From the sequence record NC_028925.1: a stretch of DNA of 64,000 bases; one strand, 5' to 3'. Below are positions 5,034-48,928 of the stretch, piece after piece (position 1 is the first letter of the stretch; each line of letters starts with the position of its first letter). This DNA is from Escherichia phage vB_EcoM_VR25. Below the pieces are notes generated by a model, which saw only the letters and a program-made list of their open reading frames with translations, was not told the DNA's origin and searched no databases. Both the position numbers and the translations under genes were made by a program.

Positions 5034-5034
5034 T

Positions 5035-5799: not shown

Positions 5800-5801
5800 A
5801 A

Positions 5802-6185: not shown

Positions 6186-6186
6186 T

Positions 6187-6372: not shown

Positions 6373-6384
6373 TTTATTCTCCTC

Positions 6385-30198: not shown

Positions 30199-30202
<4 letters not shown>
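29327..30202 (+). CDS. 15: gp15 tail sheath terminator/completion protein
   Basis: ORF track 291 aa with TTG start after GGAG; N-terminus [13 protein letters not shown]... matches T4 gp15. Confidence 0.8.
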
Positions 30203-32509
<2,307 letters not shown>

Positions 32510-32538
32510 AAGTAAAGCAAACTATTAGAGGACTCAAA

Positions 32539-34518: not shown

Positions 34519-34551
34519 TTATCATCGCTTAGAATTTAATTAGTAGTGAAA

Positions 34552-34602
34552 CCGTAGAACCATTATACAGTGTTATAAATAAAAGCATAATCGGTTCTAC
34601 GG
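34552..34602. promoter_or_regulatory. 10-bp perfect inverted repeat (CCGTAGAACC / GGTTCTACGG) with 31-nt loop containing TATAAATA and a minus-oriented MotA-box-like/TATAAT pair
   Basis: read directly in the gene 18-19 intergenic region. Confidence 0.4.
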
Positions 34603-34660
34603 GCTCCTGTAATCAATTCTGGGAAGCCATTATCTTGAGATGATGAATCATATTACCTAG

Positions 34661-34668
34661 TATAAATA
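34661..34668 (+). promoter_or_regulatory. late promoter TATAAATA
   Basis: exact octamer upstream of gene 19. Confidence 0.55.
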
Positions 34669-34720
34669 CATGCATCAGGGACGCGTTCGCGCGACCTGTG
34701 TCTATAAAGAGGATTCCTTA

Positions 34721-35212
34721 ATGGAGTTGACCGATATCACACGCGCTTTCGAATCCGGTGACTTTGCTCGCCCTAACCTGTTCGAAGTCGAAATCCCATT
34801 CCTGGGTAAAAACTTTGCTTTCCATTGTAAAGCAGCCCCGATGCCTGCTGGCATTGTAGAAAAAGTACCAGTTGGTTATATGAACCGTAAAATCAACGTT
34901 GCGGGAGACCGTACATTTGATGACTGGACTATTACGATTTATAACGACGATGCTCATAAAGTTCGTCAAGCAATTGTTGATTGGCAAAATATGTGTCACG
35001 GTATGACTAACGAAATTACCGGTGCAGCTCCTGCTGATTATAAGAAAACCGCTACTGTCCGCCAGTTCCATCGTGATGGCAAGACCATTACTAAAGAAGT
35101 TGTTATCACCGGCATGTGGCCAACTAACGTTGGGGAAGTCCAGATGGATTGGGATTCGAATAATGAGATTGAGACATTCGAAACTACGTTTGCAATTGAC
35201 TGGTGGGAATAA
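34721..35212 (+). CDS. 19: gp19 tail tube protein
   Basis: ORF track 34670..35212 trimmed to ATG at 34721 (AAAGAGGA RBS), giving 163 aa as in T4. Confidence 0.88.
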   Translation: MELTDITRAFESGDFARPNLFEVEIPFLGKNFAFHCKAAPMPAGIVEKVPVGYMNRKINVAGDRTFDDWTITIYNDDAHKVRQAIVDWQNMCHGMTNEITGAAPADYKKTATVRQFHRDGKTITKEVVITGMWPTNVGEVQMDWDSNNEIETFETTFAIDWWE

Positions 35213-35213
35213 G

Positions 35214-35221
35214 TATAAATA
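35214..35221 (+). promoter_or_regulatory. late promoter TATAAATA
   Basis: exact octamer upstream of gene 20. Confidence 0.55.
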
Positions 35222-35269
35222 AAGTTATTATGAGGCTTCGGCCTCATTTCCCAAACTTCGGAGACTCTA

Positions 35270-36844
35270 ATGGCAGGTTTTAATACAATACTAAATTTTC
35301 TTAAGCCTTGGGCTAAAGAAGATGAACAAGAATATAAGCAACAAGAAAAAAATAATTTAGAGTCAATGACCGGGCCGAAGTTTGATGATGGGGCTCGCGA
35401 AATTGAGTCACAAGAACAAAACGTCCCGTATAATGCATTGATGCAACAGATGTTCGGGAGCAACGAACCGGAAGTAAAAAACACCAGGGAATTAATTGAC
35501 ACATACCGCAACCTACTAAATAATTATGAAGTTGATAACGCGGTGCAAGAAATTGTGTCTGATGCTATCGTTTTTGAAGATGGTAAAGATGTCGTAGCTC
35601 TTAACCTTGATGCTACTGAATTTAGTCAGAAAATTAAAGACCGAATTCTCGAAGAATTCTCGGAAGTTAATAACCTCCTTAATTTCGAGCGTAAAGGTTC
35701 TGACCACTTTAAACGTTGGTATGTGGATTCTCGAATTTTCTTCCACAAAATTATCAACCCTTCAAAACTTAAAGAAGGCGTTCAAGAACTTCGTCGCCTT
35801 GACCCAAGACAAATCCAGTTCATCCGTGAAATCGTTACACGCATGGAAAATGGTACGAAAATTGTTGACGGTTACAGAGAATATTTTGTATACGATACTG
35901 GACATGAAAGCTATTGTGCCGATGGTCGTATATATGAAGCGGGTACTAAAATAAAAATTCCTCGTGCGGCAATTGTATATGCACATTCCGGATTACTTGA
36001 TTGTTGCGGTAAGAATATCATCGGATACCTGCAACGAGCAATCAAACCTGCAAACCAATTAAAACTATTAGAAGATGCTTTAGTCATTTATCGTATAACT
36101 CGTGCGCCAGACCGCCGAGTCTTTTATATCGATACTGGGAATATGCCGTCTCGTAAAGCAGCAGCACATATGCAACATATTATGAACACGATGAAAAACC
36201 GTGTCGTATATGATGCAACTACGGGTAAAATCAAAAATCAACAGCATAATATGTCAATGACAGAAGACTATTGGTTGCAACGTCGTGACGGTAAAGCAGT
36301 CACTGAAGTTGATACTCTCCCAGGTGCACAAGGCATGTCGGATATGGACGATGTTCGCTGGTTTAAGAACAACCTATATCAGGCTCTCAGAATTCCATTA
36401 TCTCGTATCCCTAATGACCAGAACAGTGGCGTTATGTTTGATGCGGGGGCGACAATTACTCGCGATGAATTGAATTTCTCTAAATGGATTAGACAACTAC
36501 AGAATAAATTTGAAGAAGTTTTCCTCGACCCGCTTAAAACCAACCTTATCCTGAAAAAAGTTATTTCAGAAGAGGAATGGGACAAGGAACTAAATAATAT
36601 TAAAGTTACGTTCAACCGTGATAGCTATTTCACCGAAATGAAAGATGCAGAAATCATGGAACGCAGAATCAATATGCTAACGATGGCTGAACCGTTTATC
36701 GGTAAATATATTTCGCATCAAACTGCAATGAAGGATTTCCTCCAGATGTCTGATGAAGAAATTAATCAAGAAGCTAAGCAAATTGAATTGGAGTCCAAAG
36801 AGGCTCGTTTCCAAAACCCTGAAGAAGAAGAAGAGGATTTCTAA
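35270..36844 (+). CDS. 20: gp20 portal vertex protein
   Basis: ORF track 524 aa (T4 524). Confidence 0.92.
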
Positions 36845-37098
36845 TGGATGATTTATTTGAAGCCATTAAATCAAACGACCTCGTAGCCGTTCGCAAATAT
36901 TTTGCTGAAAACATTGGCCCAGTATGCGGTAGTTTGATTGAAGAACGTAAGATTGAAATTGCACGTTCCATCATGATTGAAGGTGAAGAGCCTAAAGAAG
37001 ATGATGAAAACAAGGACGACAAAGCAGAAAAGAAAGACAAAAAAGAATCTGACGACGCTGACGAAGGCGACGACGATGAAGATGAGGACGATGAATAA
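36844..37098 (+). CDS. 67: gp67 prohead core protein
   Basis: ORF track 84 aa with acidic C-terminal tail; conserved position. Confidence 0.72.
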
Positions 37099-37526
37099 TG
37101 TTTATTATCCCTGACGATTACGAATTAACTCTTGAAAACATCGAAAGTGTTTCCGAAGAAGCTCAGGGACAATTTGATTCATTATCTGAAGCCTTAGAAA
37201 AAGACGATATAAATATTATTGTAGAAAACATGTTTGCAGCCGGTGAATATGAAAAAGCAACGGTTATCGGCGCACTGAATGAAGGTGTTCAGCTTAACGA
37301 ATTTATCGTTAAACATGTATCGTCTCGCGGTGAGTTAACCCGCACAAAAGACCGAGCTACTCGTAAGCGTAATGCTTTCCAAACAACTGGTCTTTCTAAA
37401 GCTAAACGTCGTCAAATTGCCCGACTGGCTACTAAAACGAAAAGAGCAAACCCATCTACGCAAATCAGAGCAGAGCGCAAGCGTAAAAAAGCTCGAGCTA
37501 AGCGTAAAGCATTCGGACTTGATTAA
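37098..37526 (+). CDS. 68: gp68 prohead core protein
   Basis: ORF track 142 aa; conserved position. Confidence 0.72.
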
Positions 37527-38164
37527 TGGAACAGAAACCAGAGTTACTAATCGAACACTGGGGTCAACCGGGCGAAATTAAAGATGGTGTACCGATGTTG
37601 GAATCTCATGATGGTTCCAGCAGCGGTTTAAAGCCAGGACTTTATATTGAAGGTATTTTCCTACAAGCTGAAGTTGTTAACCGTAATAAACGACTTTATC
37701 CTAAACGTATTTTGGAAAAAGCCGTTGCGGACTATATCGCCGAACAGGTTGAAACCAAGCAGTCTCTTGGAGAATTAAACCATCCACCTCGTGCAAACGT
37801 TGACCCTATGCAGGCAGCAATTATTATCGAGGAAATGTGGTGGAAAGGGAATGATGTATATGGCCGCGCGCGTATTATCGAAGGCGACCATGGTCCAGGT
37901 GATAAACTTGCTGCGAATATAAGAGCGGGTTGGATTCCTGGTGTATCTAGTCGTGGGCTCGGTTCCCTGACTAAATCAGCAAAAGGTTATAACATCGTCA
38001 ATGAAGGTTTTAAATTGACGGTTGGAGTAGATGCAGTATGGGGGCCAAGTGCTCCGGACGCTTGGGTCAAACCAAAGCAGATTACAGAATCACAAACGGC
38101 GGAAGCCGATACAAGTGCCGACGACGCCTTTATGGCTCTCGCAGAGGCTTTAAAGACGTTATAA
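37526..38164 (+). CDS. 21: gp21 prohead core protease
   Basis: ORF track 212 aa (T4 212). Confidence 0.88.
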   Translation: MEQKPELLIEHWGQPGEIKDGVPMLESHDGSSSGLKPGLYIEGIFLQAEVVNRNKRLYPKRILEKAVADYIAEQVETKQSLGELNHPPRANVDPMQAAIIIEEMWWKGNDVYGRARIIEGDHGPGDKLAANIRAGWIPGVSSRGLGSLTKSAKGYNIVNEGFKLTVGVDAVWGPSAPDAWVKPKQITESQTAEADTSADDAFMALAEALKTL

Positions 38165-38167
38165 ATA
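38160..38167 (+). promoter_or_regulatory. late promoter TATAAATA
   Basis: exact octamer upstream of gene 22. Confidence 0.55.
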
Positions 38168-38196
38168 AATGTATATCTTAACAACAGGACTACAAA

Positions 38197-39015
38197 ATGC
38201 TTAAAGAACAACTCATTTCTGAAGCTCAAAACATCGATGCTTCCGTTGCTCTCGATAGTATTTTCGAATCAGTTAATTTGTCCCCGGAAGCGAAAGCTAC
38301 CTTCGGCACTGTATTCGAAGCTACCGTCAAGCAACACGCCATCAAACTGGCAGAATCTCACATTCACGCCATCGCTGAAAAAGCTGAAGAAGAAGTCGAA
38401 AAGAATAAAGAAGAATCCGACGAAAAAGCAGAGAAAAAACTGAAAGAATCTGCAGCTAAATTCCTGGACCACGTTGCTAAAGAATGGCTTGCTGAAAACA
38501 AACTGGCTGTCGACCGTGGCATTAAAGCTGACCTGTTCGAATCCATGTTTACCGGCATGAAAGAACTGTTCGTTGAGCACAACGTTGTTGTTCCAGAAGA
38601 ATCTGTTGATGTTGTTGCAGAAATGCAGGAAGAACTGGAAGAGCAAAAAGCTGAAACCGCTAGTCTGTTCGAAGAAGTTTCTAAGCGTGATGCTTATATC
38701 AATTATGTCCAGCGCGAAGTTGCGTTGACTGAAGCGACCAAAGACCTGACCGAATCTCAAAAAGAAAAAGTTGGTTCTCTGGTAGAAGGTATGGATTATT
38801 CCGATGCGTTCGGTACCAAAATTGGCGCTATCGTTGAAATGGTTAAAGGTCAGGTAGACACCGCCGAAAAACCTATCACCGAAGCAGCTATAAATAATTC
38901 TGTAGACGATGCTGCGGCACTGAATTACATCTCAGAAGCAGTTGAAGAAAAAGGCGCCAAGCCTACCCTGTCCTTCGCGGACTTGTCTGCTCTCGCAGCA
39001 TCACGAATTTCTTAA
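38197..39015 (+). CDS. 22: gp22 prohead scaffold core protein
   Basis: ORF track 272 aa; E/K-rich helical sequence. Confidence 0.85.
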   Translation: MLKEQLISEAQNIDASVALDSIFESVNLSPEAKATFGTVFEATVKQHAIKLAESHIHAIAEKAEEEVEKNKEESDEKAEKKLKESAAKFLDHVAKEWLAENKLAVDRGIKADLFESMFTGMKELFVEHNVVVPEESVDVVAEMQEELEEQKAETASLFEEVSKRDAYINYVQREVALTEATKDLTESQKEKVGSLVEGMDYSDAFGTKIGAIVEMVKGQVDTAEKPITEAAINNSVDDAAALNYISEAVEEKGAKPTLSFADLSALAASRIS

Positions 39016-39036
39016 TTTAATAAGGTTATACAACAC

Positions 39037-40596
39037 ATGAAAAAGAATGCATTAGTTCAAAAATGGTCCGCTCTGCTGGAAAACGAAGCTCTTCCTGAAA
39101 TCGTTGGTGCTTCTAAACAAGCTATCATCGCTAAAATCTTTGAAAACCAGGAACAAGATATCCTGACCGCTCCTGAATACCGTGACGAAAAAATCTCCGA
39201 AGCATTTGGTTCTTTCCTGACTGAAGCTGAAATCGGTGGTGACCATGGTTATGATGCTACCAATATCGCGGCTGGCCAGACCTCTGGTGCAGTAACTCAG
39301 ATTGGGCCGGCAGTTATGGGTATGGTTCGTCGTGCTATCCCGCATCTGATTGCGTTTGATATTTGTGGCGTGCAGCCTCTGAACAACCCGACTGGCCAGG
39401 TATTTGCCCTGCGTGCAGTTTACGGTAAAGACCCTGTAGCTGCTGGTGCTAAAGAAGCTTTCCACCCGATGTATGCTCCGAACGCTATGTTCTCTGGTCA
39501 GGGCGCTGCTGAAGCTTTCGAAGCTCTGGCTGCAAGCAAAGTTCTTACCGTTGGTAAAATTTATTCTCACTTCTTCGAAGCAACCGGTTCCGCACACTAC
39601 CAGGCTGTTGAAGCTGTAACCGTTGATGCTGGCGCTACTGATGCTGCTAAACTTGACGCTGAAGTTACCAAACTGCTCGAAGCTGGTAAACTGGCAGAAA
39701 TTGCTGAAGGTATGGCTACCTCTATCGCCGAACTGCAGGAAGGTTTCAACGGTTCTCAGGATAACCCGTGGAACGAAATGGGCTTCCGCATCGATAAACA
39801 AGTTATCGAAGCTAAATCCCGTCAGCTGAAAGCAAGCTACTCTATCGAACTGGCACAGGACCTGCGCGCTGTTCACGGTATGGACGCTGATGCTGAATTG
39901 AGTGGTATTCTGGCTACTGAAATTATGCTGGAAATCAACCGCGAAGTTATCGATTGGATTAACTACTCCGCACAGGTTGGTAAATCTGGTATGACCAACA
40001 CCGTTGGCGCTAAAGCTGGTGTGTTTGACTTCCAGGACCCAATTGATATCCGTGGCGCTCGTTGGGCTGGTGAAAGCTTCAAAGCTTTACTGTTCCAGAT
40101 TGATAAAGAAGCCGCTGAAATCGCTCGTCAGACCGGTCGTGGTGCAGGTAACTTCATCATCGCTTCCCGTAACGTAGTTAACGTACTGGCTGCAGTTGAT
40201 ACCTCCGTATCTTATGCTGCTCAGGGTCTGGGTAAAGGTTTCAACGTTGACACCACTAAAGCTGTGTTCGCTGGTGTTCTGGGTGGCAAATACCGTGTCT
40301 ATATCGACCAGTATGCTCGCGCAGATTACTTCACCATCGGTTACAAAGGCGCTAACGAAATGGATGCTGGTATCTACTACGCACCATATGTTGCACTGAC
40401 CCCGCTGCGTGGCTCTGACCCGAAAAACTTCCAGCCGGTTATGGGCTTCAAAACCCGTTACGGTATCGGTATTAACCCGTTCGCTGACCCGGCAGCTCAG
40501 GCTCCGACCAAGCGTATTCAAAACGGCATGCCGGACATTGTTAACAGCCTCGGCTTGAACGGTTACTTTAGACGTGTATATGTAAAAGGTATCTAA
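39037..40596 (+). CDS. 23: gp23 major capsid protein
   Basis: ORF track 519 aa; codon usage typical of a highly expressed gene; conserved position. Confidence 0.95.
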   Translation: MKKNALVQKWSALLENEALPEIVGASKQAIIAKIFENQEQDILTAPEYRDEKISEAFGSFLTEAEIGGDHGYDATNIAAGQTSGAVTQIGPAVMGMVRRAIPHLIAFDICGVQPLNNPTGQVFALRAVYGKDPVAAGAKEAFHPMYAPNAMFSGQGAAEAFEALAASKVLTVGKIYSHFFEATGSAHYQAVEAVTVDAGATDAAKLDAEVTKLLEAGKLAEIAEGMATSIAELQEGFNGSQDNPWNEMGFRIDKQVIEAKSRQLKASYSIELAQDLRAVHGMDADAELSGILATEIMLEINREVIDWINYSAQVGKSGMTNTVGAKAGVFDFQDPIDIRGARWAGESFKALLFQIDKEAAEIARQTGRGAGNFIIASRNVVNVLAAVDTSVSYAAQGLGKGFNVDTTKAVFAGVLGGKYRVYIDQYARADYFTIGYKGANEMDAGIYYAPYVALTPLRGSDPKNFQPVMGFKTRYGIGINPFADPAAQAPTKRIQNGMPDIVNSLGLNGYFRRVYVKGI

Positions 40597-40614
40597 GCCT
40601 TAAAAATTAAAAAA

Positions 40615-40641
40615 GGGACCTTCGGGTCCCTTTCTTGTTTT
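40615..40641. terminator. bidirectional-looking terminator GGGACC-UUCG-GGUCCC flanked by A-run and U-rich tract
   Basis: hairpin read directly between gene 23 (+) and the convergent 97-aa ORF (-). Confidence 0.6.
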
Positions 40642-40934
40642 CATACCATACCATTTAAATGAACTTCTACCCGGCGCTTGATGAGGTCTCTGAAATTAAC
40701 ACTGTTCTCTTGAAGTTTCAACCAGTTACCTGATTTGTCTTTGGTGTGAGTAGAATAATTACCATTCCACCAAAAATCAGTATCATATGCTAAGTTTTCA
40801 TATTTTTTAACTAGTTTGTTCAGAGCATTACCATTAACACCATTTGGGTATTTGTTGACCAATGCAACAACTTCAATTTCCAGATTTTTAAAGGTATTCC
40901 GAAGGAAAGATACTTTGTTCATTTTAGACTCCAT
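40641..40934 (-). CDS. hypothetical protein (early gene embedded in the late module)
   Basis: ORF track 97 aa; own early promoter and conserved leader upstream. Confidence 0.5.
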   Translation of the reverse strand: MESKMNKVSFLRNTFKNLEIEVVALVNKYPNGVNGNALNKLVKKYENLAYDTDFWWNGNYSTHTKDKSGNWLKLQENSVNFRDLIKRRVEVHLNGMV

Positions 40935-40937
40935 TGT

Positions 40938-40988
40938 TTGGTAACTCAGTATGAAATCATTATGTCTTATCTTAATCGGGTTGTAAAC
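40938..40988 (-). promoter_or_regulatory. early promoter (-35 GTTTAC, 17 bp, -10 CATAAT) plus conserved leader
   Basis: minus-strand reading; leader GGTAACTCAGTATG shared with the cassettes at 3.1-4.5 kb. Confidence 0.5.
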
Positions 40989-40994
40989 AACTTT

Positions 40995-41002
40995 TATAAA
41001 TA
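40995..41002 (+). promoter_or_regulatory. late promoter TATAAATA
   Basis: exact octamer upstream of gene 24. Confidence 0.55.
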
Positions 41003-41027
41003 AAGTATATCACAAAAGGAAAGCGCA

Positions 41028-42308
41028 ATGGCAAAGATTAACGAACTGCTGCGCGAGTCAACTACCACTACCAGCAACTCCTTGGGCCGCCCGAATCTTG
41101 TTGCTTTGACCCGTGCTACAACCAAATTGATTTACCGCGATATTATCGCTGAACAACGTACTAACCAGCCAGTTGCGGCTCTGTACGGTGTTAAATATCT
41201 TACTCCTGATAATGAATTCAGTTTCCAGACTGGTGCTACTTATGGTGGTGAAGTCGGTTCTAAAGACCGTACAACTATTCCAGAATTAGCTACAGCTACT
41301 CAGCCTGTTGCTAAAGGCGAATATGTAAAATATCAAAATATCGTTTACAAAGCTCTGGTGGATAATCCATTTGCAACAACCACAGAAACAGTATTATCTG
41401 ATGTTCTACAGGAAGGTCTTATTGCATCGACTATTCGTTTAGTTCCTGATGCAGCGCATACCGAGAAATTTGAAGCCGGTGATGTTGAAATTAGTAACGC
41501 CGTGTTCCAGGTTAATAAATGGAATGCTCCTGTTAAATCCCGTAAATTGAAAACTGCACTGACTGTTGAACTTGCTCAGGATATGGAAGCAAACGGTTTT
41601 AATGCTCCTGCTTTCCTGGAAGACCTGCTTGCAACTACCATGGCAGACGAAATTAACAAAGATGTTCTGCAGTCTCTGATTACCGTTTCCAAGCGTTATA
41701 AAGTCACTGGCGTTTCTGATAAAGGTTTCATCGATTTGACATATGATTCAGCTCCAGAAGGCGCACGTAAACTATACGAACTGGTTTGCGAAATGAACTC
41801 TGAAATTCAGAAAACTACATCTTACTCTGGTACATTCGTTGTTGCCTCAAGTCGTGTGGCCGCGATGCTCGCCGGTTCCGGTTGGTTGAAACATAAACCT
41901 GAAGATGAACAATGGCTCCCGGAAACCGCGTACGGCTATTTGATTAATGGTCTTCCTGTATTCTGTGATGTTAACAGTCCATTGGATTATGTAACCGTTG
42001 GCGTTAAAGAAAATTACGGTGGAAACGAAGTCGTAGGCTCAATCTTCTATGCTCCTTATACCGAAGGCCTGGACTTAGATGATGAAGAACATGTAGGTGC
42101 GTTTAAGGTCATTGTGGACCCAGACAGCTTGCAGCCATCTATCTCCTTGATGGTTCGATATGCACTTTCAGCTAACCCTTACACCGTTGCTAAAGACGAC
42201 AAAGAAGCTCGTATTATCGATGCAACTAATATGGATTTAATGGCCGGCCAGAGCAACATGTCTTATCTGCTCGGTGTTAAACTTCCACCAATCATTTATG
42301 AGGCGTAA
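41028..42308 (+). CDS. 24: gp24 head vertex protein
   Basis: ORF track 426 aa; N-terminus MAKINELLRESTTT...GRPNLVALTRATTKLIY matches T4 gp24. Confidence 0.9.
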   Translation: MAKINELLRESTTTTSNSLGRPNLVALTRATTKLIYRDIIAEQRTNQPVAALYGVKYLTPDNEFSFQTGATYGGEVGSKDRTTIPELATATQPVAKGEYVKYQNIVYKALVDNPFATTTETVLSDVLQEGLIASTIRLVPDAAHTEKFEAGDVEISNAVFQVNKWNAPVKSRKLKTALTVELAQDMEANGFNAPAFLEDLLATTMADEINKDVLQSLITVSKRYKVTGVSDKGFIDLTYDSAPEGARKLYELVCEMNSEIQKTTSYSGTFVVASSRVAAMLAGSGWLKHKPEDEQWLPETAYGYLINGLPVFCDVNSPLDYVTVGVKENYGGNEVVGSIFYAPYTEGLDLDDEEHVGAFKVIVDPDSLQPSISLMVRYALSANPYTVAKDDKEARIIDATNMDLMAGQSNMSYLLGVKLPPIIYEA

Positions 42309-43592
42309 ATGCAAAAGATTAACGCACTAATTCACGAATCAACATTAACGGCGGCCAACCAGGTCGCCCGTCCTAATTTGCTTTCTTATACTCGGGCTAC
42401 GAATAAACGAATTTTTAAAGCTCTTGTGGCCGAACAGAAAACTACTCAGCCAGTCGCAGCGCTGTATGGCGTTCGTGTTCTGAACCCAGATGATAAAATG
42501 ACTTATCTTGGTGGAGCAACATTTGCAGGCCAGATTGGTATGTTCGAGCGTAAGAATATTCCAGAATTTACGAACAAAGACGAAGCTTATGCAGTCGGCA
42601 ACATGTTCCAGTTTGAAAGCATTGTATTCAAAGCTTTGGAAGCTTCTCCTTTTGCCGGGACCCTCGAAACTGATTTGGGTGAAGTTATTTCTGAAGCCAT
42701 TGCGGCTGGCCATATAAGAATGATGTCAGATGCGGCTTTCACTGATAAATTTGAACAAGGACATCCTGAAATTGCTGAAGCCGGTTTCCGTATTGATAAA
42801 TGGCAGACTGAAGTTAAATCCAGAAAACTGAAAACCTCTTTAACCGTTGAGCTTGCGCAAGACCTGGAAGCAAATGGTTTCGACGCAACAGATTTTATTG
42901 ATAATATCCTTGGTATTCAAATGGCAGAGGAAATTAATAAGGACGTACTGCAATCTTTAATTACCGTGAGTTCGCGTTTTAAAGTCCAGGGTGTTTCCGA
43001 AAAAGGTGTACTTAATCTTACTGATGCCGCTTATGATAATGCTCAGGACCGTGCTCGAACTCTGTATTATTATATGTGCGAAATGAATTCCGCAGTTCAA
43101 CGTCAGACTTCGTTCGCTGGTACATATGCAGTCGCTTCTTCCCGTTGTGCAGCTATTTTAGCAGCTTCTGGCTGGGTTGAGAAAAAGGAAGACCAAGATG
43201 AATTGGCCTATGGTGTTCTGAAGAACGGTTTGCCACTTTATGCAGATATGAATAGCCCGTGCGATTATGTTATTGTTGGTGTAAATGCTGATATGGGTGA
43301 AGGTCAGACAGTCGCATCTTTGTATTATGCGCCTTATACGGAAGGTCTTAGTGAAGTTGATGATGAGGGTGACACCTCGGTTGGGGAATTCAAGGTTATC
43401 GTTGACCCCGAAAGTTTACAGCCTACAGTTGCACTGTTAGCTCGTTATGCACTGACTGCAAACCCTTACACCGTTGCTAAAGACGATAAAGAAGCTCGCA
43501 TTATTGATGGAGCTGATATGGATAAGATGGCTAACCAAAGCCAATTGAGTTCTTATCTTGGTGTTAAACTTCCACCACTGGAAAAAGAATAA
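42309..43592 (+). CDS. gp24 paralog (second head vertex protein copy, tandem duplicate)
   Basis: ORF track 427 aa; collinear similarity to the preceding gene (MQKINALIHEST..., ...PYTVAKDDKEARIID...GVKLPP). Confidence 0.85.
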   Translation: MQKINALIHESTLTAANQVARPNLLSYTRATNKRIFKALVAEQKTTQPVAALYGVRVLNPDDKMTYLGGATFAGQIGMFERKNIPEFTNKDEAYAVGNMFQFESIVFKALEASPFAGTLETDLGEVISEAIAAGHIRMMSDAAFTDKFEQGHPEIAEAGFRIDKWQTEVKSRKLKTSLTVELAQDLEANGFDATDFIDNILGIQMAEEINKDVLQSLITVSSRFKVQGVSEKGVLNLTDAAYDNAQDRARTLYYYMCEMNSAVQRQTSFAGTYAVASSRCAAILAASGWVEKKEDQDELAYGVLKNGLPLYADMNSPCDYVIVGVNADMGEGQTVASLYYAPYTEGLSEVDDEGDTSVGEFKVIVDPESLQPTVALLARYALTANPYTVAKDDKEARIIDGADMDKMANQSQLSSYLGVKLPPLEKE

Positions 43593-43612: not shown

Positions 43613-44617
43613 TTAACTAATTAATGCAATCCAAACATGTCTTAATGTATCTCTTACATTTGCAATGAGTTGCTTTTTAACTTCAACAGGATTTTCCGTC
43701 TGGGTTAATTCAAGGCCTTCCCGACCTGCTTCTTCCAAAATATCTTGAACAGTCAAACCCATTACCTTTCCAAAATCCTTTGGCGTTACTTCCCCAATTT
43801 TACTGATAACATTGTTGATGCGGTTAACAGTCACATAATCAGTGAACTTCCATAAAATGTCCAGGTCTTCCTGGGACAACACAACAGCAGCCTTGATAGG
43901 CTTATCAGACTTTTTCTTTTCGCTGAATTTAGAGTTCTTACATTTAATCGCTACGCGCTCACCATTAGGTAACCAGGCCGGAGTATCAGGTTTAAGAACA
44001 TACCCTTCTGCAGTGAATACTTTACCTTCAACCTTTGCGTCAAAATCGGTGGTATTCGCGGTAGTCAAACCCGCATTATCTACTGTAAAATTGTAATCAG
44101 GAACCACAGAATCCAGGTCGTTAGGGAGCTTAATCAAGTCTTCAAAGCTACCCGTAGCCAGTCGTGGGGCAACCTTAAATTTATGGATAATACAGAAGGC
44201 TTCCATCAATGAATCAGTCAAAACAGATTCAGAGCCATCTTCCTTAGTAACGCGGATATCAAATACATAGAAATCTTTGTCACCATAATCAACATTCTTC
44301 TGGATACCCGCCCCGGCAAACTCACCATAAATTTGGTATGATTGATAATTAATATCCTGTAAAAGTCTCTGCACAGTTTTAATGGAATCTGCATAGTTCT
44401 TGAGTACAATTTCGTAGCCATAGAAATCTTCTGCAGGTAGGATAGGTCCAGTGCGTTTCGCACATGTCACATTGTCTTGTTCAATGATTAATGAAAAGTT
44501 GGTGCCATGAATTTTCTCACGCGCTACCCATTCACCGCTGGTGAAGCCTTGCAGGCGAATCTTTTCAATGAACTTGTTGTTATAGTGATTTTCAAGGCTG
44601 TTGTATTTCTTAAACAT
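43613..44617 (-). CDS. rnlB: RNA ligase 2
   Basis: ORF track 334 aa (T4 Rnl2 334); [13 protein letters not shown]... and nucleotidyltransferase motif KIHGTN. Confidence 0.9.
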
Positions 44618-44746: not shown

Positions 44747-45010
44747 TCAGAATTTTACATACAATGTTGGCTTGTTTTCTTGCCAATTATAATTCCAGGT
44801 AAATGATGTAAATTTTTCTGCCCGCAGAAAATCAGATATCTTTGTGCGGTTTCCTTCTTCATACTCTTTTTCAGAAACTGCCATATTAACAGCATCTTTG
44901 CCATTCTCGGCAGCGGCAATAGCCACTTTGCGAAATATAACAATAAAGTCATTTGCAACTTTATCTTGTGATTCTTTAGCCATTTGGCGTAGTTCTTCTG
45001 CGAATGTCAT
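44747..45010 (-). CDS. hypothetical protein
   Basis: ORF track 87 aa. Confidence 0.45.
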   Translation of the reverse strand: MTFAEELRQMAKESQDKVANDFIVIFRKVAIAAAENGKDAVNMAVSEKEYEEGNRTKISDFLRAEKFTSFTWNYNWQENKPTLYVKF

Positions 45011-45210
45011 TTCTTCACCTTTTTGTTAAACAACCGCTTGCGGTATACGATTTTCTCTCGTGACTTGAACTTTTCTTTAGCTTGTTCAACATCAACCCAT
45101 GCCTTTGCCATTTCTTTAGCGGTCCCGCCTAATACCTTGGCGATTTCAATAAATGTCATACCAGTTTCATGCAGGAAATGTACTTTAACCTTATTCATAA
45201 CCATTCTCAT
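45007..45210 (-). CDS. hypothetical small basic protein
   Basis: ORF track 67 aa; start/stop overlap with the downstream gene. Confidence 0.4.
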   Translation of the reverse strand: MRMVMNKVKVHFLHETGMTFIEIAKVLGGTAKEMAKAWVDVEQAKEKFKSREKIVYRKRLFNKKVKK

Positions 45211-45347
45211 GTTGAGTTAGTGAAGCTATCTTAACATGGAATTTTTAACTTGTAAACAGGAGTTTTATGCCAGATATTCTTGAACGTAAAGATTTACTTT
45301 ACAACCGCCACTACTTTAATAAATATTAAATTAATAACGGAGGATTT

Positions 45348-46928
45348 ATGACACAAACTACAGGTGAAAAAGAAGGCGTATTTTACGGTTATTCTCTTTA
45401 TGATTTGAATAAAGAAAAACTAATAACTTTTGATGAATTACTTACAGGTGTTCAAGGAGAGCCCGGAGAAAATGGCGATATTGGACCAAAAGGCCCTATT
45501 GGTTTAACAGGTCCTCAAGGACCGAAAGGTGATACCGGGTCAAAAGGTATTAAAGGTGATACCGGCCCTCAAGGTATTCAAGGGCCCGCTGGCCCACAAG
45601 GTCCTCAGGGAGAAAAGGGAGTCCAAGGTTTAGCTGGAGTCCAAGGCATTCAAGGACCAGTCGGCCACCAAGGAGTGAAAGGTGATACCGGCCCTCAAGG
45701 TATTCAAGGACCGAAAGGTGATACAGGTCCTCAAGGCCCACAAGGTGACAAAGGCGAAATGGGTCCGGTGGGTCCGGCTGGTCTAACATGGAAAGGAACA
45801 TGGGACGCTGATGTAGAGTATTCTATAAATGAGGCTGTCGGATATGGTGGTTCTTTATATTTCGCCAAAACAAAAGTTCCTAATGGCGAAATACCAACAC
45901 CGACTTCTAACTATTGGGGTGTTTTGGCTACCGAGGGTCCACAAGGTCCACAAGGTCAACAAGGTCTTAAAGGTGATACCGGTCCTCAAGGTATTCAAGG
46001 ACCTGTAGGGCCTGTAGGGCAGCAGGGTATTCAGGGACCAAGAGGACTTCAAGGGTCAGAAGGTGAAATAGGACCGCGGGGTATTCAAGGGCTAAAAGGC
46101 GAAACTGGGCCCGCTGGTCCACAGGGTATTCAAGGGCTAAAAGGCGAGGTGGGTGCTCAGGGTCCTTCTGGTTCTCCTGGACTTACAGGACCAGAAGGAC
46201 CTCGTGGGTTAACAGGCGAAGCTGGAGCTCAAGGACCTCGTGGTGCTATAGGTCCTATCGGTTTAACAGGTCCTATCGGTTTAACGGGTCCTCAAGGTAT
46301 TCAAGGTCCTAAAGGTGATACAGGTCCTCAAGGCTTACAAGGTCCTCAAGGCTTACGAGGTATTCAAGGAGCTCCTGGAGTAAAAGGAGAAGCGGGTGCA
46401 CAAGGTCCTATCGGTTTAACAGGTCCGAAAGGTGATACCGGTCCTCAAGGTATTCAAGGACCGAAAGGTGATACAGGAGCACAAGGTCCTATTGGTTTAA
46501 CTGGACCTAAAGGTGATACAGGCCCGAGCCCTTATACTGTTTATAATTATTCTAATGTTGCAACTGGTTATGCTGAAATGGTTATGCCTGGTGTGTCATC
46601 AAACACAGTATTTAGACTTCGTTCAGTTGGAACTAATATAGAATATAGTGTTCTAAGTAAAGGCGGAGCTAATAGATATGTAGATTGGCACTTTTCAATT
46701 CCAAGTGTTTCCGGCAATACAGTAAGTACTAATAGCGGAACTAATACATTAACTCCTACAGGTAATTTTACTATTGTGGCGACCGCTTATAATGGACTAA
46801 GGGGATTTACAATAACATTATGCGAGTGGGGTTCAAGAGCTATTGTTGATATCACTGTTTATCATCATGGGCGTTCGGGAGACACAACCAAAGCTGTGGC
46901 TATTCGTATGACTACTACAAAATACTAA
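45348..46928 (+). CDS. collagen-like (Gly-X-Y repeat) protein with C-terminal globular domain
   Basis: ORF track 526 aa; two long Gly-X-Y runs separated by a roughly 50-aa non-collagenous insert; GGAGG RBS; no counterpart in T4 at this position. Confidence 0.8.
   Translation: MTQTTGEKEGVFYGYSLYDLNKEKLITFDELLTGVQGEPGENGDIGPKGPIGLTGPQGPKGDTGSKGIKGDTGPQGIQGPAGPQGPQGEKGVQGLAGVQGIQGPVGHQGVKGDTGPQGIQGPKGDTGPQGPQGDKGEMGPVGPAGLTWKGTWDADVEYSINEAVGYGGSLYFAKTKVPNGEIPTPTSNYWGVLATEGPQGPQGQQGLKGDTGPQGIQGPVGPVGQQGIQGPRGLQGSEGEIGPRGIQGLKGETGPAGPQGIQGLKGEVGAQGPSGSPGLTGPEGPRGLTGEAGAQGPRGAIGPIGLTGPIGLTGPQGIQGPKGDTGPQGLQGPQGLRGIQGAPGVKGEAGAQGPIGLTGPKGDTGPQGIQGPKGDTGAQGPIGLTGPKGDTGPSPYTVYNYSNVATGYAEMVMPGVSSNTVFRLRSVGTNIEYSVLSKGGANRYVDWHFSIPSVSGNTVSTNSGTNTLTPTGNFTIVATAYNGLRGFTITLCEWGSRAIVDITVYHHGRSGDTTKAVAIRMTTTKY
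45553..46477 (+). repeat. near-identical direct repeats inside the collagen-like gene
   Basis: 32-mer AAAGGTGATACCGGCCCTCAAGGTATTCAAGG exact at 45553 and 45678, one mismatch at 45969, again within 46425-46477; tandem CCTATCGGTTTAACAGGT at 46252/46267. Confidence 0.7.
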
Positions 46929-46937: not shown

Positions 46938-47801
46938 ATGGAACCGGTTAAAGCTGTGTTAGAGCCTGATGTAATAGATGTGGAATATGGTAATACATAC
47001 TCGGCTACTGTAACTCTGTCTCCTATAGAAAATATTCCAGATGGTTCCGTGATAAGATATGATTGGGTTGTTAATAACAAGTTCGTTGGTACGGGTGAAG
47101 CTACTCGTACCACCCAACCATCTCAGACCGGAAATTATGTATTATCATGTAGAGTATTCATTACTCCGCCTAATGAAAATACTGTAATGATAACAACTAA
47201 TAAATCATATGGGTATGTATATAAAAATTCCGATACAAGTCCAGTAGATGCAGAAATATTATATGATAACAAGATATACCAAATAGGAAGCAAAGTTAGA
47301 TTATTAGCCGTTGCCAATAACCCAGATACCAACTTTGTTAAAGGTATTATATGGAAGGATGCTGATGGTAAGATAATAGGTATAGGTCGGGAATATATCC
47401 ATACAATGCAATCAGAGTATGATATAGTTCGAGCTAAAGTTACAATGGATTCGCCTATAAGAGATGAATTTAGTAAGAACTTTACTATACATTTGTACGC
47501 TATAAATGTTCAAGAAGGAACATGTATAAGATATATTCATCCTTTAGACCACAGGGATGCAGGATTTATCTGGTGTGGTTGGTGGGTTATGGATGAAATC
47601 CAACGAGCGATAAAACTTGGGCTGGATTGGAAAAATCCAAAAGAGCTAGATTTAAATTACAAGTGTGATTTAGAGACATTAGCGTTATTGCTCAAGACAT
47701 ATCCTGAAGCCGAAGTTCAAGAATCAAGACACGGATATATAATAACCAGACTACAAATTGAGACTGGCGAAATATATAAAAAACCATATGAAGTAAAATA
47801 A
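46938..47801 (+). CDS. Hoc-like capsid decoration protein (second copy)
   Basis: ORF track 287 aa; C-terminal ...HPLDHRDAGFIWCGWWVMDEIQRAIK...YPEAEVQESRHGYII... parallels the capsid-binding C-terminus of the hoc product downstream. Confidence 0.7.
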   Translation: MEPVKAVLEPDVIDVEYGNTYSATVTLSPIENIPDGSVIRYDWVVNNKFVGTGEATRTTQPSQTGNYVLSCRVFITPPNENTVMITTNKSYGYVYKNSDTSPVDAEILYDNKIYQIGSKVRLLAVANNPDTNFVKGIIWKDADGKIIGIGREYIHTMQSEYDIVRAKVTMDSPIRDEFSKNFTIHLYAINVQEGTCIRYIHPLDHRDAGFIWCGWWVMDEIQRAIKLGLDWKNPKELDLNYKCDLETLALLLKTYPEAEVQESRHGYIITRLQIETGEIYKKPYEVK

Positions 47802-47804
47802 AAG

Positions 47805-47822
47805 GGCCTTGCGGCCCTTTAT
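47805..47822. terminator. terminator hairpin GGGCC-UUGC-GGCCC between convergent genes
   Basis: read directly. Confidence 0.5.
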
Positions 47823-47824: not shown

Positions 47825-48928
47825 TTAATAGACGTAATCGTATATAATACCAGCTTCCAATGCCGAACGGTGGACGATACGACCGTTACGAGATTCCTGT
47901 ACATCAACTTCCGGGTAATCACTAAGCATTTTGGCTAATACCGCCAGATGACAATAATATGGTGTATCCTCTTTAGTGGCTTTTTTCCAATCTGTACTTT
48001 CAGATGTTAATTTCTGAATAGCGTCCATAACCCACCAGCCACACCAAATATACGCAGTATTACGGACAGGAAGTGGATGTACATAAATTAAAGGGCATTC
48101 TTCTGGAATAACAGGCTCTGCTTCTTCCACAGTAACGGACTTAGTACCTGATTTAACTGAATTTGTAAAGCCTGTTTGTGATGCGGTAACTTCACAAGTA
48201 TATGTCTTCAAGCCTTCAGTGGATTCCGTTATTGCTCTTGTTGCTTCTGTTGAGTTGTCGTCCCATTTATATGCAAGAGTCGCACCAGGGATAGCAGGGG
48301 ACACAGAAGCTGTCAAATTGAATGGAACATCAACCGTTGCAGTAGACGGGCCTGAAATCTCAACAGTGAACTCAGGAAATGTATTGTTTTCGACCGTAAC
48401 AACTACTGCCTCAGGATTAATAACTTGATTGTCATAATCTGCCGCAGAAACGGTAATTTGGCAAGTTAAAGAAACTGGTCCTGCGTCAGTAGCAGCACGA
48501 GTAATATCTTTAGTAATTTCACCAGTAGACCACAAATATGCTATTGTAGCTCCACCGGGTTCACCTGTTACATTAGCCGAAGCGTTATATTCCTGACCAA
48601 CTTTAACAGTAGGAGTGGAAGTTGTTAATGTTGCTGTTGCAGCCATAGTCTTATTATTAACCGTAATGGTTGTTTGAGCCTCTGCCGTTTCAGGCTCTCC
48701 TTCTTCCGGCGTTGTGGTGGCAACAACTTTAATTACTTTTGAACCTGCTGGGCCAGCTGCAATATAATCCATAGTAGCAATAACAGAATCTTGTGGAACA
48801 TCATCAACGGTCCATACAAAAGATTCGGTACCAGCGACAGCGGCTCCAGCCCCAGTAGCAGTAAAATTAGTTGTTGCACCTATAACCGCTGTAGGTGTTA
48901 AAGGGGCAATTGATACAGTATAAGCCAT
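47825..48928 (-). CDS. hoc: Hoc, highly immunogenic outer capsid protein
   Basis: ORF track 367 aa (T4 about 376); C-terminus ...CPLIYVHP...AYIWCGWWVMD...YPEVDVQESRNGRIVH... matches T4 Hoc; minus orientation as in T4. Confidence 0.8.
   Translation of the reverse strand: MAYTVSIAPLTPTAVIGATTNFTATGAGAAVAGTESFVWTVDDVPQDSVIATMDYIAAGPAGSKVIKVVATTTPEEGEPETAEAQTTITVNNKTMAATATLTTSTPTVKVGQEYNASANVTGEPGGATIAYLWSTGEITKDITRAATDAGPVSLTCQITVSAADYDNQVINPEAVVVTVENNTFPEFTVEISGPSTATVDVPFNLTASVSPAIPGATLAYKWDDNSTEATRAITESTEGLKTYTCEVTASQTGFTNSVKSGTKSVTVEEAEPVIPEECPLIYVHPLPVRNTAYIWCGWWVMDAIQKLTSESTDWKKATKEDTPYYCHLAVLAKMLSDYPEVDVQESRNGRIVHRSALEAGIIYDYVY

What the first reader, a model, noticed from the sequence alone, without database searches (positions are those of the whole stretch)
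45553..46477. Recombination-prone direct repeats inside the collagen-like gene
Exact or near-exact 30-50-bp direct repeats recur within the Gly-X-Y coding region (for example the 32-mer at 45553 and 45678, copies near 45969 and 46425-46477, and a tandem 15-bp duplication at 46252/46267). Such repeats predict in-frame expansion and contraction of the collagen stalk by unequal recombination, that is, length variation of this protein.
Basis: seen in the sequence. Interest (0 to 1): 0.45.

Follow-up and report, generated by a model that had tools for sequence, protein, structure and literature searches.

The report
Length-variable collagen-like phage fibre gene
A T4-like coliphage gene for a collagen-like fibre really is full of exact in-frame DNA repeats, and related phages carry versions that differ by whole Gly-X-Y triplets, an ordinary and already known behaviour of collagen-like genes.

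Summary
The repeats are real. Window 45348-46928 (+) encodes a 526-aa collagen-like protein with 38 + 66 Gly-X-Y triplets. It contains exact direct repeats of 35, 35, 32 and 24 nt and an 18-nt (not 15-nt) tandem duplication, all in frame. They exceed what triplet shuffling or synonymous-codon resampling gives, so the DNA identity goes beyond protein constraint.

The predicted length variation exists among relatives. The nearest allele (phage VR26, 10 substitutions) lacks one 54-nt in-frame segment (46407-46460), in the most repeat-dense part. VR7, VR5, ESCO10, KIT01 and JS10 alleles carry 23-104 triplets, and every indel measured is a multiple of 9 nt. VR7 has a perfect 90-nt tandem duplication.

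Half of the window/VR26 substitutions are clustered patches in which both states copy another repeat, which indicates intragenic gene conversion. However, the 54-nt indel junction has only short homology and does not lie at the 30-35-nt repeats. Unequal homologous crossover is therefore not shown, and no within-lysate data exist.

The same behaviour is known for BclA, S. thermophilus phage antireceptors and the Guarani virophage, so this is a new member of a known kind.

Side lead: gene context in three phage families is a head module, not a tail-fibre module.

The parts
45348..46928 (+). Collagen-like fibre gene, 526 aa plus stop. It is the orthologue of VR26 gp244 / VR7 ORF196w, which are annotated 'tail fiber protein' or 'collagen triple helix repeat protein'.
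   Evidence: ORF list. Pfam Collagen E=1.9e-50. PHROG 5073 E=4e-154. 99% nt identity to VR26.
45348..45446 (+). N-terminal 33-aa non-collagen domain, the presumed virion anchor. Its length is constant in six T4-like alleles.
   Evidence: The same motif occurs in Vequintavirinae homologues P0067, P0107 and A7_1. It gives an EF-hand-like match in PDB at E=2.2e-5.
45447..45788 (+). Collagen block 1, 38 uninterrupted Gly-X-Y triplets.
   Evidence: Relatives have 38-50 triplets here.
45789..45935 (+). Middle 49-aa non-collagen module (WKGTW...YWGVLA), CBM5/12-like.
   Evidence: Pfam CBM_5_12 at E=0.04, 14.4 bits, below the 26.2-bit cut-off. Many database collagen proteins that carry a similar module have PF02839 among their precomputed Pfam domains. 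Weak match to the N-termini of solved tail fibre/spike chains, E=0.008.
45936..46529 (+). Collagen block 2, 66 Gly-X-Y triplets. This is the most length-variable part.
   Evidence: Relatives have 60 (VR26), about 54 (KIT01), 39 (ESCO10) and 32 (VR5, VR7) triplets.
46530..46928 (+). C-terminal 132-aa all-beta distal domain plus stop. This domain is exchanged between alleles.
45552..45583 (+). 32-nt exact repeat, copy 1. Copy 2 is at 45678-45709, spacing 126 nt (14 triplets).
   Evidence: VR26 differs here at 45563 and 45566, and its version matches the 46310 copy for 24 nt.
45678..45709 (+). 32-nt exact repeat, copy 2.
45969..46003 (+). 35-nt exact repeat A, copy 1. Copy 2 is at 46428-46462, spacing 459 nt.
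46428..46462 (+). 35-nt exact repeat A, copy 2. It lies largely inside the 54 nt that VR26 lacks.
45693..45727 (+). 35-nt exact repeat B, copy 1 (block 1). Copy 2 is at 46443-46477 (block 2), spacing 750 nt. Recombination between them would remove the middle domain.
   Evidence: In VR26 this copy matches window 46443-46486 for 44 nt.
46443..46477 (+). 35-nt exact repeat B, copy 2.
46250..46292 (+). Tandem 18-nt duplication (AGGTCCTATCGGTTTAAC, 2.4 copies, encoding GPIGLT x2). Its first 24 nt recur exactly at 46403-46426.
46079..46147 (+). Pair of 24-nt exact repeats at 46079 and 46124, spacing 45 nt (GIQGLKGE).
46407..46460 (+). 54-nt (18-aa, 6-triplet) segment present in the window and absent from the otherwise 99%-identical VR26 allele. 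It is not a tandem copy of its neighbours.
   Evidence: Identity to the flanking 54 nt is 41% and 54%, which is background. Junction homology is CAAGG[T/A]CC. An alternative route is 36 + 18 nt deletions between CCGAAAGGTGATAC and AGGTCC repeats.
46938..47801 (+). Second Hoc-like head-decoration gene. It is co-inherited with the collagen gene as a two-gene accessory cassette.
   Evidence: PHROG 1149 'Hoc-like head decoration' at E=1.2e-57. The cassette is present in VR26, VR7, VR5, ESCO10, KIT01 and JS10 and absent from VR20.
45318..45325 (+). AATAAATA, a 7/8 match to the T4 late-promoter box TATAAATA, 23 nt upstream of the ATG. This is a possible late promoter, by inference only.
   Evidence: Read from the sequence. 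Exact TATAAATA is enriched in the window, 20 observed against 4.5 expected, but none lies directly upstream of this gene.

Best explanation
The region is the Gly-X-Y-coding part of a gene for a trimeric collagen-like fibre.

Architecture: a 33-aa N-terminal anchor, 38 triplets, a 49-aa CBM5/12-like knob, 66 triplets and a 132-aa beta-sandwich distal domain. The gene sits with a second Hoc-like gene in an accessory cassette at the hoc locus of a Gaprivervirus (a T4-like coliphage).

Its collagen-coding DNA is built from a few reiterated motifs, above all AAAGGTGATAC(C/A)GG(T/C)CCTCAAGGTATTCAAGG, which encodes KGDTGPQGIQG. Copies of these motifs are kept identical, even at synonymous sites, by gene conversion between copies.

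Because every copy is in the same codon and Gly phase, any misaligned pairing adds or removes whole triplets. This holds whether it arises from strand invasion during the recombination-dependent replication typical of T4-like phages or from polymerase slippage. The reading frame and triple-helix register are preserved, so such variants are viable. The fibre length therefore drifts or is selected between isolates. At 0.286 nm per residue, the spans are about 89 nm here, about 84 nm in VR26, about 61 nm in VR5 and about 20 nm in JS10.

The same collagen motifs abut the C-terminal domain and could also serve as crossover points for swapping that domain between alleles.

Shown here: the repeats, their excess over null models, the in-frame indels between alleles, and conversion-like substitution patches.

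Inferred: the molecular pathway, the trimeric fibre, and any functional consequence of its length.
For: Repeats and their significance.

Nearest allele, VR26:
- There are 10 substitutions and one 54-nt in-frame indel.
- The non-collagen parts of the gene have 1 substitution in 645 nt.
- The indel falls where the 24-nt and the two 35-nt exact copies lie.

Conversion signature:
- At 45563/45566, both allelic states are exact copies (23-32 nt) of other repeat copies.
- At 45728/29/31, both allelic states match other copies for 24-44 nt.
- At 46310, both allelic states match other copies for 17-27 nt.
- A random base change creates a >=23-nt match with P about 0.009, or 0.034 at third codon positions.

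Other alleles:
- VR7 has +99 nt relative to VR5 and a 114-nt perfect repeat at 90-nt spacing. ESCO10 has +63 nt relative to VR5. Both indels are multiples of 9.
- Block 1 has 38-50 triplets and block 2 has 32-66, while the N-terminal (33 aa) and middle (48-49 aa) domains are constant.
- JS10 has only 23 triplets.
- Alleles share exact 20-32-nt words out of register.
- C-terminal domains differ between alleles, and the switch point lies at the end of the last KGDTG motif.

Literature precedent:
- An 81-nt in-frame deletion in the collagen-like ORF8 of the Guarani virophage was associated with its host-range expansion. That paper also cites collagen-like repeats as recombination hot spots in S. 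thermophilus phages and a spontaneous deletion in phage Sfi21 (PMC7242381).
- BclA has a strain-specific number of triplets (PMC10470788).
- Deletions between direct repeats are a recognised mutation class in T4 (PMC4120765).
Against: - The single indel against the closest allele does not have its endpoints in the long (24-35 nt) exact repeats. Its junction homology is 2 nt exact or 8/9 imperfect, or 14 + 6 nt if two events are assumed. The long repeats themselves are therefore not demonstrated to be the crossover sites.
- The direction of the event (deletion in VR26 or gain in the window lineage) could not be polarised for lack of a close outgroup.
- Only five T4-like alleles with the same N-terminal domain (plus JS10, which has a different N-terminus) were found in the phage collection. 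None turned up in IMG/VR beyond VR26 and VR5, in JGI metagenomes, or in the large protein database. The sample of events is therefore small.
- No data exist on variation within a lysate.
- Triple-helix formation, trimerisation and virion location are untested.
Confidence: 0.75

Rival explanations
1. The repeats are a passive by-product of selection for a reiterated peptide motif (stabilising KGD/KGE triplets) plus codon bias. They do not make the gene unusually unstable, and the length differences between phages are old, rare events.
For: The protein itself repeats GPKGDTGPQGIQ 3-4 times. Collagen coding is inherently low in complexity. Only one indel separates the window from VR26.
Against: With the protein held fixed and synonymous codons resampled, exact 24-mer pairs fall from 36 to 0.9 (P about 0.0005). 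VR7 has a 114-nt perfect repeat, which indicates a very recent duplication. The substitution clusters between the window and VR26 copy other repeats.
Confidence: 0.1
2. Length changes arise mainly by replication slippage or microhomology-mediated deletion and duplication between very short repeats (2-14 nt). They do not arise by homologous unequal crossing-over at the 30-35-nt repeats. The long repeats are a consequence (duplication or conversion products) rather than the cause.
For: The 54-nt indel junction has 2 nt of exact (8/9 imperfect) homology, or resolves into 36-nt and 18-nt deletions between 14-nt and 6-nt repeats. Tandem 18-nt and 90-nt duplications are classical slippage products. 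Deletions between direct repeats are a known T4 mutation class (PMC4120765).
Against: Patchy conversion between copies 150-750 nt apart needs strand exchange between distant copies, which slippage alone does not explain. T4-like phages replicate through recombination (general knowledge, not tested here).
Confidence: 0.35
3. The main biological role of the collagen repeats is as homology patches for recombination between co-infecting phages, which swaps the C-terminal (ligand-binding) domain. Length change is a side effect.
For: Three unrelated C-terminal domains follow a shared ...KGD(K/T)G... collagen end in alleles with near-identical N-termini. Exact 20-32-nt words are shared out of register between alleles. 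The window-type C-terminal domain occurs behind different N-termini in Drexlerviridae and Vequintavirinae. Collagen-like repeats separate the antireceptor domains of S. thermophilus phages (PMC5601072), and PMC7242381 cites them as proposed recombination hot spots.
Against: No recombinant pair with a mapped crossover inside a collagen motif was found. Nucleotide identity at the block 2 / C-terminal junction between allele types is low apart from about 11 nt.
Confidence: 0.3
4. The differences between alleles are sequencing or assembly artefacts caused by the repeats.
For: Repetitive coding regions are prone to collapse or expansion in short-read assemblies. VR7 also has a 1-nt T-run frameshift in the same gene, which could be an error.
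Against: Exact repeats in the window and in VR26 are at most 35 nt, shorter than any common read length. All indels are multiples of 9 and keep the frame. Independent genomes from different laboratories (Lithuania, France, Viet Nam, JS10) all differ.
Confidence: 0.05

Closest known systems
BclA exosporium filament protein of Bacillus anthracis and B. cereus (collagen-like region length polymorphism)
   Same: Both have a short N-terminal anchor (38 aa in BclA, 33 aa here), a central Gly-X-Y region whose triplet number differs between strains, and a C-terminal globular domain of about 130 aa (134 against 132). For BclA, length polymorphism changes filament length (PMC10470788 and Sylvestre 2003 cited there).
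Collagen-like repeats in Streptococcus thermophilus phage antireceptor genes (Desiere 1998; Duplessis and Moineau 2001; Bruttin and Brussow 1996, phage Sfi21)
   Same: In both, collagen-like repeats in a phage surface or adhesion gene separate or flank variable domains. [quoted passage not shown]
   Different: Those are tail antireceptors of siphophages of a Gram-positive host, with short collagen stretches. Here there are two long blocks (104 triplets) in a T4-like coliphage gene that sits in the head-decoration locus. No passage data exist here.
Guarani virophage ORF8 collagen-like protein
   Same: An in-frame deletion of a multiple of 9 nt (81 nt) inside tandem collagen-like repeats arose spontaneously and was associated with host-range expansion (PMC7242381). 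This is the type of event inferred between the window and VR26 (54 nt).
   Different: Guarani is a virophage of giant viruses with a regular array of five 27-nt repeats. Here the repeats are dispersed and mosaic, and no phenotype is known.
VR7 ORF196w / VR26 gp244 / JS10 gp176 ('collagen triple helix repeat protein', 'tail fiber protein')
   Same: These are direct orthologues at the same locus. VR26 is 99% identical at the DNA level.
   Different: The window allele is the longest found (526 aa). It has 54 nt that VR26 lacks, and a C-terminal domain different from those of VR7, VR5, ESCO10 and KIT01.
SPP1 gp12 collagen-like capsid decoration protein, and T4 Hoc
   Same: SPP1 gp12 is a precedent for a collagen-like trimer that binds a phage capsid (PMC7602432). 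The gene here is adjacent to hoc, a Hoc-like gene and inh, and its homologues lie in head modules in other phage families.
   Different: No sequence relationship was found or tested. gp12 is described there only as an elongated trimeric spike predicted to be collagen-like, with no domains like those here. Capsid attachment of the window protein is pure inference from synteny.

Membership tests
Collagen triple-helix repeat proteins (Pfam PF01391), bacterial/phage collagen-like proteins | Long uninterrupted Gly-X-Y repeats that match the Collagen profile above its curated cut-off | tested here: met
   168.9 bits against a 27.2-bit cut-off, 6 stretches. Uninterrupted blocks of 38 and 66 triplets.
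Collagen triple-helix repeat proteins (Pfam PF01391), bacterial/phage collagen-like proteins | Formation of a homotrimeric triple helix, nucleated by a flanking globular domain | not testable with these tools
   Only a monomer model of the C-terminal domain was made. No biophysical data exist.
Length-polymorphic collagen-like filament proteins (BclA type) | The number of Gly-X-Y triplets differs between strains while the flanking domains are conserved | tested here: met
   Six alleles have an N-terminal domain of 33 aa and a middle domain of 48-49 aa. Block 1 has 38-50 triplets and block 2 has 32-66. The window/VR26 indel is 54 nt.
Length-polymorphic collagen-like filament proteins (BclA type) | C-terminal C1q/TNF-like jelly-roll trimerisation domain | tested here: not met
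Collagen-like repeats as recombination hot spots in phage adhesion genes (S. thermophilus phage type) | Collagen-like repeats border domains that are exchanged between related phages | tested here: met
   Three different C-terminal domains begin directly after the last collagen motif in alleles with the same N-terminus.
Collagen-like repeats as recombination hot spots in phage adhesion genes (S. thermophilus phage type) | Spontaneous in-frame deletions or duplications with endpoints in the repeats, observed on passage | not testable with these tools
   Only between-isolate comparison was possible. The one close-pair junction lies in short (2-14 nt) repeats, not in the longest ones.
Phage tail fibre (the label in RefSeq/PHROG annotation) | The gene lies in the tail-fibre/baseplate module | tested here: not met
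   In T4-likes it lies between rnlB/24.3 and hoc-like/hoc/inh. In e4/1c it lies between the prohead protease and the major head protein. In Vequintavirinae it lies between an Inh_N-like gene and the head-tail adaptor.
Phage tail fibre (the label in RefSeq/PHROG annotation) | Non-collagen domains homologous to characterised tail-fibre domains | tested here: inconclusive
   The middle module gives weak hits to the N-termini of solved 'putative tail fiber' and 'tail spike gp124' chains (E=0.008 and 0.036). The PHROG 'tail fiber' labels rest largely on the collagen part. The C-terminal domain has no solved relative by sequence.
Capsid decoration / head-fibre proteins (Hoc, SPP1 gp12, phi29 gp8.5) | The gene lies in the head-morphogenesis module next to other decoration genes | tested here: met
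Capsid decoration / head-fibre proteins (Hoc, SPP1 gp12, phi29 gp8.5) | Demonstrated binding to the capsid surface or presence on the head | not testable with these tools
   This needs virion mass spectrometry, immuno-EM or cryo-EM.

The most novel reading that the evidence does not exclude
The protein may not be a tail fibre. It may instead be a collagen-like head fibre, anchored to the capsid by its conserved 33-aa (EF-hand-like) N-terminus. It would be co-inherited with a second Hoc-like decoration protein and would display a CBM-like knob and an exchangeable beta-sandwich tip. Its reach (about 20-90 nm) would be tuned by repeat-mediated gain and loss of triplets. That would make it a length-adjustable capsid adhesin shared as a module between Straboviridae, Vequintavirinae and Drexlerviridae.
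Probability: 0.3. Interest if true: 0.55.

Novelty: new member of a known kind. Interest (0 to 1): 0.3.

Why it matters
Repeat-driven length change in collagen-like surface proteins is well documented (BclA, the Guarani virophage, S. thermophilus phages), so the finding mainly adds a T4-like coliphage example.

Its practical value is modest:
- It warns that this gene is a hot spot for assembly and annotation differences.
- It offers an easy PCR marker for typing related phages.
- It gives a tractable system, a recombination-proficient T4-like phage, for separating slippage from homologous exchange.

The more interesting lead is the side observation that this widely mislabelled 'tail fiber' may be a modular head fibre. 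That would bear on how phage capsids adhere to mucus or host surfaces.

Tried and rejected
1. I searched for more close alleles in several collections.
   - IMG/VR with the full protein returned only distant collagen proteins plus VR5.
   - IMG/VR with a collagen-free concatenated query returned only VR26 and VR5.
   - JGI metagenomes returned nothing.
   - The 5.8-billion-protein search was swamped by collagen words. With the collagen-free query it returned no hit at all.
   - The event sample therefore stays small.

2. I tested whether the 54 nt is a tandem duplication in the window lineage. This is rejected. Identity to the neighbouring 54 nt is 41% and 54%, which is background.

4. I tested the middle domain as a bona fide CBM5/12. 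It scores only a sub-threshold 14.4 bits.

5. I looked for an exact T4 late promoter upstream of the gene. There is none, only a 7/8 match. The sigma-70 and terminator scans were at background level.

6. Rfam found no RNA family in the region, only two tRNAs far away.

7. The antisense ORFs at 45550-45801 and 45855-46052 were judged to be by-products of the repetitive G+C-rich coding strand and were not pursued.

8. The EF-hand reading of the N-terminus rests on a significant PDB hit. However, the Ca-ligand positions are not conserved in the homologues, so it is not adopted.
Full report
**What is there**

The flagged interval lies inside one gene, window 45348-46928 (+), encoding a 526-aa protein. 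Pfam Collagen matches it at E=1.9e-50.

The window comes from a T4-like coliphage of the genus Gaprivervirus. Its structural genes at 30000-42000 are 98.4% identical to phage vB_EcoM-VR7.

Neighbouring genes:
- a gp24 capsid-vertex paralogue (42309-43592)
- rnlB (43613-44617, minus strand)
- 24.2 and 24.3 (44747-45210, minus strand)
- the collagen-like gene
- a second Hoc-like gene (46938-47801, +)
- hoc (47825-48928, minus strand)
- inh

These assignments rest.

The protein has five parts:
- a 33-aa N-terminal domain
- 38 uninterrupted Gly-X-Y triplets (45447-45788)
- a 49-aa non-collagen module (45789-45935), only weakly CBM5/12-like (E=0.04, below the Pfam cut-off)
- 66 triplets (45936-46529)
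- a 132-aa C-terminal domain, modelled with high confidence (pLDDT 88.8) as a ten-strand beta-sandwich

**Checking the observation**

Exact direct repeats are present essentially as described:
- 35 nt at 45969/46428
- 35 nt at 45693/46443
- 24 nt at 46250/46403, 46079/46124 and 45714/46311
- several 20-21-nt families

The '15-bp tandem duplication' is an 18-nt unit at 46250/46268 (TRF: period 18, 2.4 copies, 96% matches). Nothing reaches 50 nt. All spacings are multiples of 3.

Two null models show the repeats are not a trivial consequence of collagen coding:
- Shuffling the 9-nt triplet units gives a mean longest repeat of 20.7 nt, with P(>=35) = 0.0015.
- Keeping the amino-acid sequence and redrawing synonymous codons from the gene's own usage gives 21.4 nt, with P(>=35) = 0.01.
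- The codon-resampling null gives 0.9 identical 24-mer pairs against 36 observed (P about 0.0005).

The copies are therefore identical at silent sites far more often than the repeated peptide motif GPKGDTGPQGIQ demands. That points to recent duplication or homogenisation.

**Testing the prediction with relatives**

The same gene occupies the same locus in six other phages of the INPHARED collection. Their lengths differ:

| Phage | Length (aa) |
|---|---|
| window | 526 |
| KIT01 | 520 |
| VR26 | 508 |
| ESCO10 | 454 |
| VR5 | 433 |
| VR7 | 427 |
| JS10 | 335 |

In the six alleles with the same N-terminus, that domain (33 aa) and the middle module (48-49 aa) do not vary in length. Collagen block 1 has 38-50 triplets and block 2 has 32-66. 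JS10 has only 23 triplets in total.

The closest allele is VR26. It differs from the window by 10 substitutions and a single 54-nt (six-triplet) gap at 46407-46460. The missing segment is exactly where one 24-nt and two 35-nt exact copies sit.

VR7 differs from VR5 by 99 nt and contains a 114-nt perfect repeat at 90-nt spacing, which indicates a very recent tandem duplication. ESCO10 differs from VR5 by 63 nt.

Every indel measured in the collagen-coding blocks is a multiple of 9 nt, that is, whole Gly-X-Y triplets.

Using the standard 0.286 nm rise per residue of a collagen helix (textbook value, not tested here), the stalks would span about 89 nm (window), 84 nm (VR26), 61 nm (VR5) and 20 nm (JS10). 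The 54-nt indel equals about 5 nm.

**Mechanism**

Two observations bear on how the variation arises.

First, the window/VR26 substitutions are not ordinary point mutations.
- Five of the ten lie in two 4-nt clusters (45563/45566 and 45728/29/31), and one more is at 46310.
- At each of these three sites, both allelic states are exact copies, 17-44 nt long, of another repeat copy elsewhere in the gene.
- A random base change in the collagen blocks creates a >=23-nt match elsewhere with P about 0.009, or 0.034 for third codon positions.
- The non-collagen 645 nt of the gene carry only one substitution.

This is the signature of gene conversion between dispersed repeat copies, which requires pairing between copies 150-750 nt apart.

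Second, the 54-nt indel is not a tandem duplication. Its identity to the neighbouring 54 nt is 41% and 54%, which is background.
- Its junction has just CC in common (CAAGG[T/A]CC, 8 of 9).
- Alternatively, the VR26 sequence is reached exactly by two deletions: 36 nt between 14-nt repeats (CCGAAAGGTGATAC) and 18 nt between AGGTCC repeats.
- Such junctions are as compatible with polymerase slippage as with unequal homologous exchange. Deletions between direct repeats are a recognised T4 mutation class (PMC4120765).

My best account is as follows. The repeat family is maintained by conversion. Any misaligned pairing among the many in-phase copies, whether by strand invasion during recombination-dependent replication or by slippage, yields viable triplet-number variants. 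Which pathway dominates is unresolved.

The direction of the 54-nt event could not be polarised. A single-step duplication in the window lineage is excluded, so a deletion in the VR26 lineage is the simpler reading.

**Other roles of the repeats**

Alleles with nearly identical N-termini carry three unrelated C-terminal domains:
- the window/VR26 type
- the KIT01 type
- the ESCO10/VR5/VR7 type

Each begins directly after a final ...KGD(T/K)G... collagen motif.

The window-type C-terminal domain recurs behind other N-termini in T1-like Rogunavirus e4/1c, in Vequintavirinae A7_1 and in JS10.

Alleles also share exact 20-32-nt words out of register. The collagen blocks may therefore also serve as crossover patches for domain exchange, as proposed for Streptococcus thermophilus phage antireceptors (PMC5601072; PMC7242381). 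No mapped recombinant supports this here.

**What the protein is**

RefSeq and PHROG call it a 'tail fiber protein', but that label rests largely on the collagen repeats.

Gene context argues for the head rather than the tail:
- In T4-likes the gene forms a two-gene cassette with a Hoc-like gene, inserted between 24.3 and hoc. The cassette is absent from VR20 and from most relatives.
- In e4/1c it lies between the prohead protease and the major head protein.
- In Vequintavirinae it lies between an Inh_N-like gene and the head-tail adaptor.

A collagen-like capsid decoration protein has precedent in SPP1 gp12 (PMC7602432). This remains inference from synteny, and I give it about 0.3 in the full form stated as the novel case.

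The N-terminal 33 aa gives an unexpected EF-hand-like hit (NCS-1, E=2.2e-5). The calcium-ligand positions are not conserved in the homologues, so I do not build on it.

**Comparison with known systems and novelty**

The architecture and behaviour parallel BclA of Bacillus anthracis: a short anchor, a strain-specific number of triplets and a C-terminal domain of about 130 aa (PMC10470788). They also parallel the in-frame 81-nt deletion in the collagen-like ORF8 of the Guarani virophage, which was associated with its host-range expansion (PMC7242381).

Membership in the BclA family fails on the C-terminal fold. Membership in the generic collagen-like protein family is met. The gene itself is already annotated in VR7, VR26 and JS10.

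The finding is therefore a correct, verifiable observation. It adds a T4-like coliphage example to a known phenomenon: a new member of a known kind, of modest interest.

**Limits**

- Only six comparison alleles were available. Searches of IMG/VR, JGI metagenomes and the large protein database added none.
- All evidence is between isolates, not within populations.
- Assembly error in the published genomes is unlikely, because repeats in the window and in VR26 are at most 35 nt and all indels are in frame. It has not been excluded experimentally.

Noticed in passing
window 45348-46928 and 46938-47801; L090 (VR20) 3305-4758: The collagen-like gene and a second Hoc-like gene form a two-gene accessory cassette of about 2.5 kb between 24.3 and hoc. 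It is present in VR26, VR7, VR5, ESCO10, KIT01 and JS10. It is absent from VR20, where hoc directly follows 24.3, and from most other relatives.
   Followed up: partly
L091 (e4/1c) 4882-6399; L093 (A7_1) 4819-6402; L088 5121-6395: Homologues of the collagen-like protein sit in head-morphogenesis modules in three phage families. They lie next to hoc/inh, next to the major head protein, or just upstream of the head-tail adaptor. The usual 'tail fiber protein' annotation is therefore doubtful, and a head fibre is plausible.
   Followed up: partly
window 45348-45446: The 33-aa N-terminal domain matches the helix-loop-helix of an EF-hand (NCS-1, 1fpw_A, E=2.2e-5), with the loop D-x-N-x-E-K-x-I-T-x-x-E. 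The ligand positions are not conserved in homologues P0067 and P0107, so calcium binding is uncertain.
   Followed up: partly
L004 (VR7) 3646-5056: The VR7 allele has a 1-nt insertion in a T run relative to VR5. This frameshifts and truncates the C-terminal domain (427 aa). It is either a natural pseudogenising or phase-like change or a sequencing error. VR7 also has a 114-nt perfect repeat at 90-nt spacing.
   Followed up: partly
window 45268-45330: A 20-codon mini-ORF (MPDILERKDLLYNRHYFNKY) with a good ribosome-binding site (caggag) lies in the intergenic region just upstream of the collagen gene. This region is 95-98% conserved in VR7 and VR5.
   Followed up: no
L088 733-6395: In a Vequintavirinae-like 80-kb contig, three adjacent genes carry collagen repeats (about 1100 aa, 107 aa and 424 aa). 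The 107-aa protein has an N-terminal motif related to that of the window protein. This suggests a family of fibres that share one anchor.
   Followed up: no
window 47801-47820: A G+C-rich hairpin (AAAGGGCC GCAA GGCCCTTT) lies between the convergent Hoc-like gene and hoc. It is a likely bidirectional terminator.
   Followed up: no
window 42309-43592 and upstream: The phage carries two tandem gp24 (capsid vertex) paralogues, as VR7 and VR26 do ('capsid vertex protein I and II').
   Followed up: no
window 4961-5033 and 5171-5241 (- strand): Rfam finds two tRNA genes here. They are the only RNA-family matches in the window.
   Followed up: no
window 43613-44617 and 47825-48928, compared with L001 (VR26): Divergence from VR26 is mosaic along the locus. 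rnlB differs by 4.3% and hoc by 3.3%. In contrast, 24.3 and the middle and C-terminal parts of the collagen gene differ by 0%, and the second Hoc-like gene by 0.5%. This suggests that the cassette was exchanged recently between otherwise more distant genomes.
   Followed up: no
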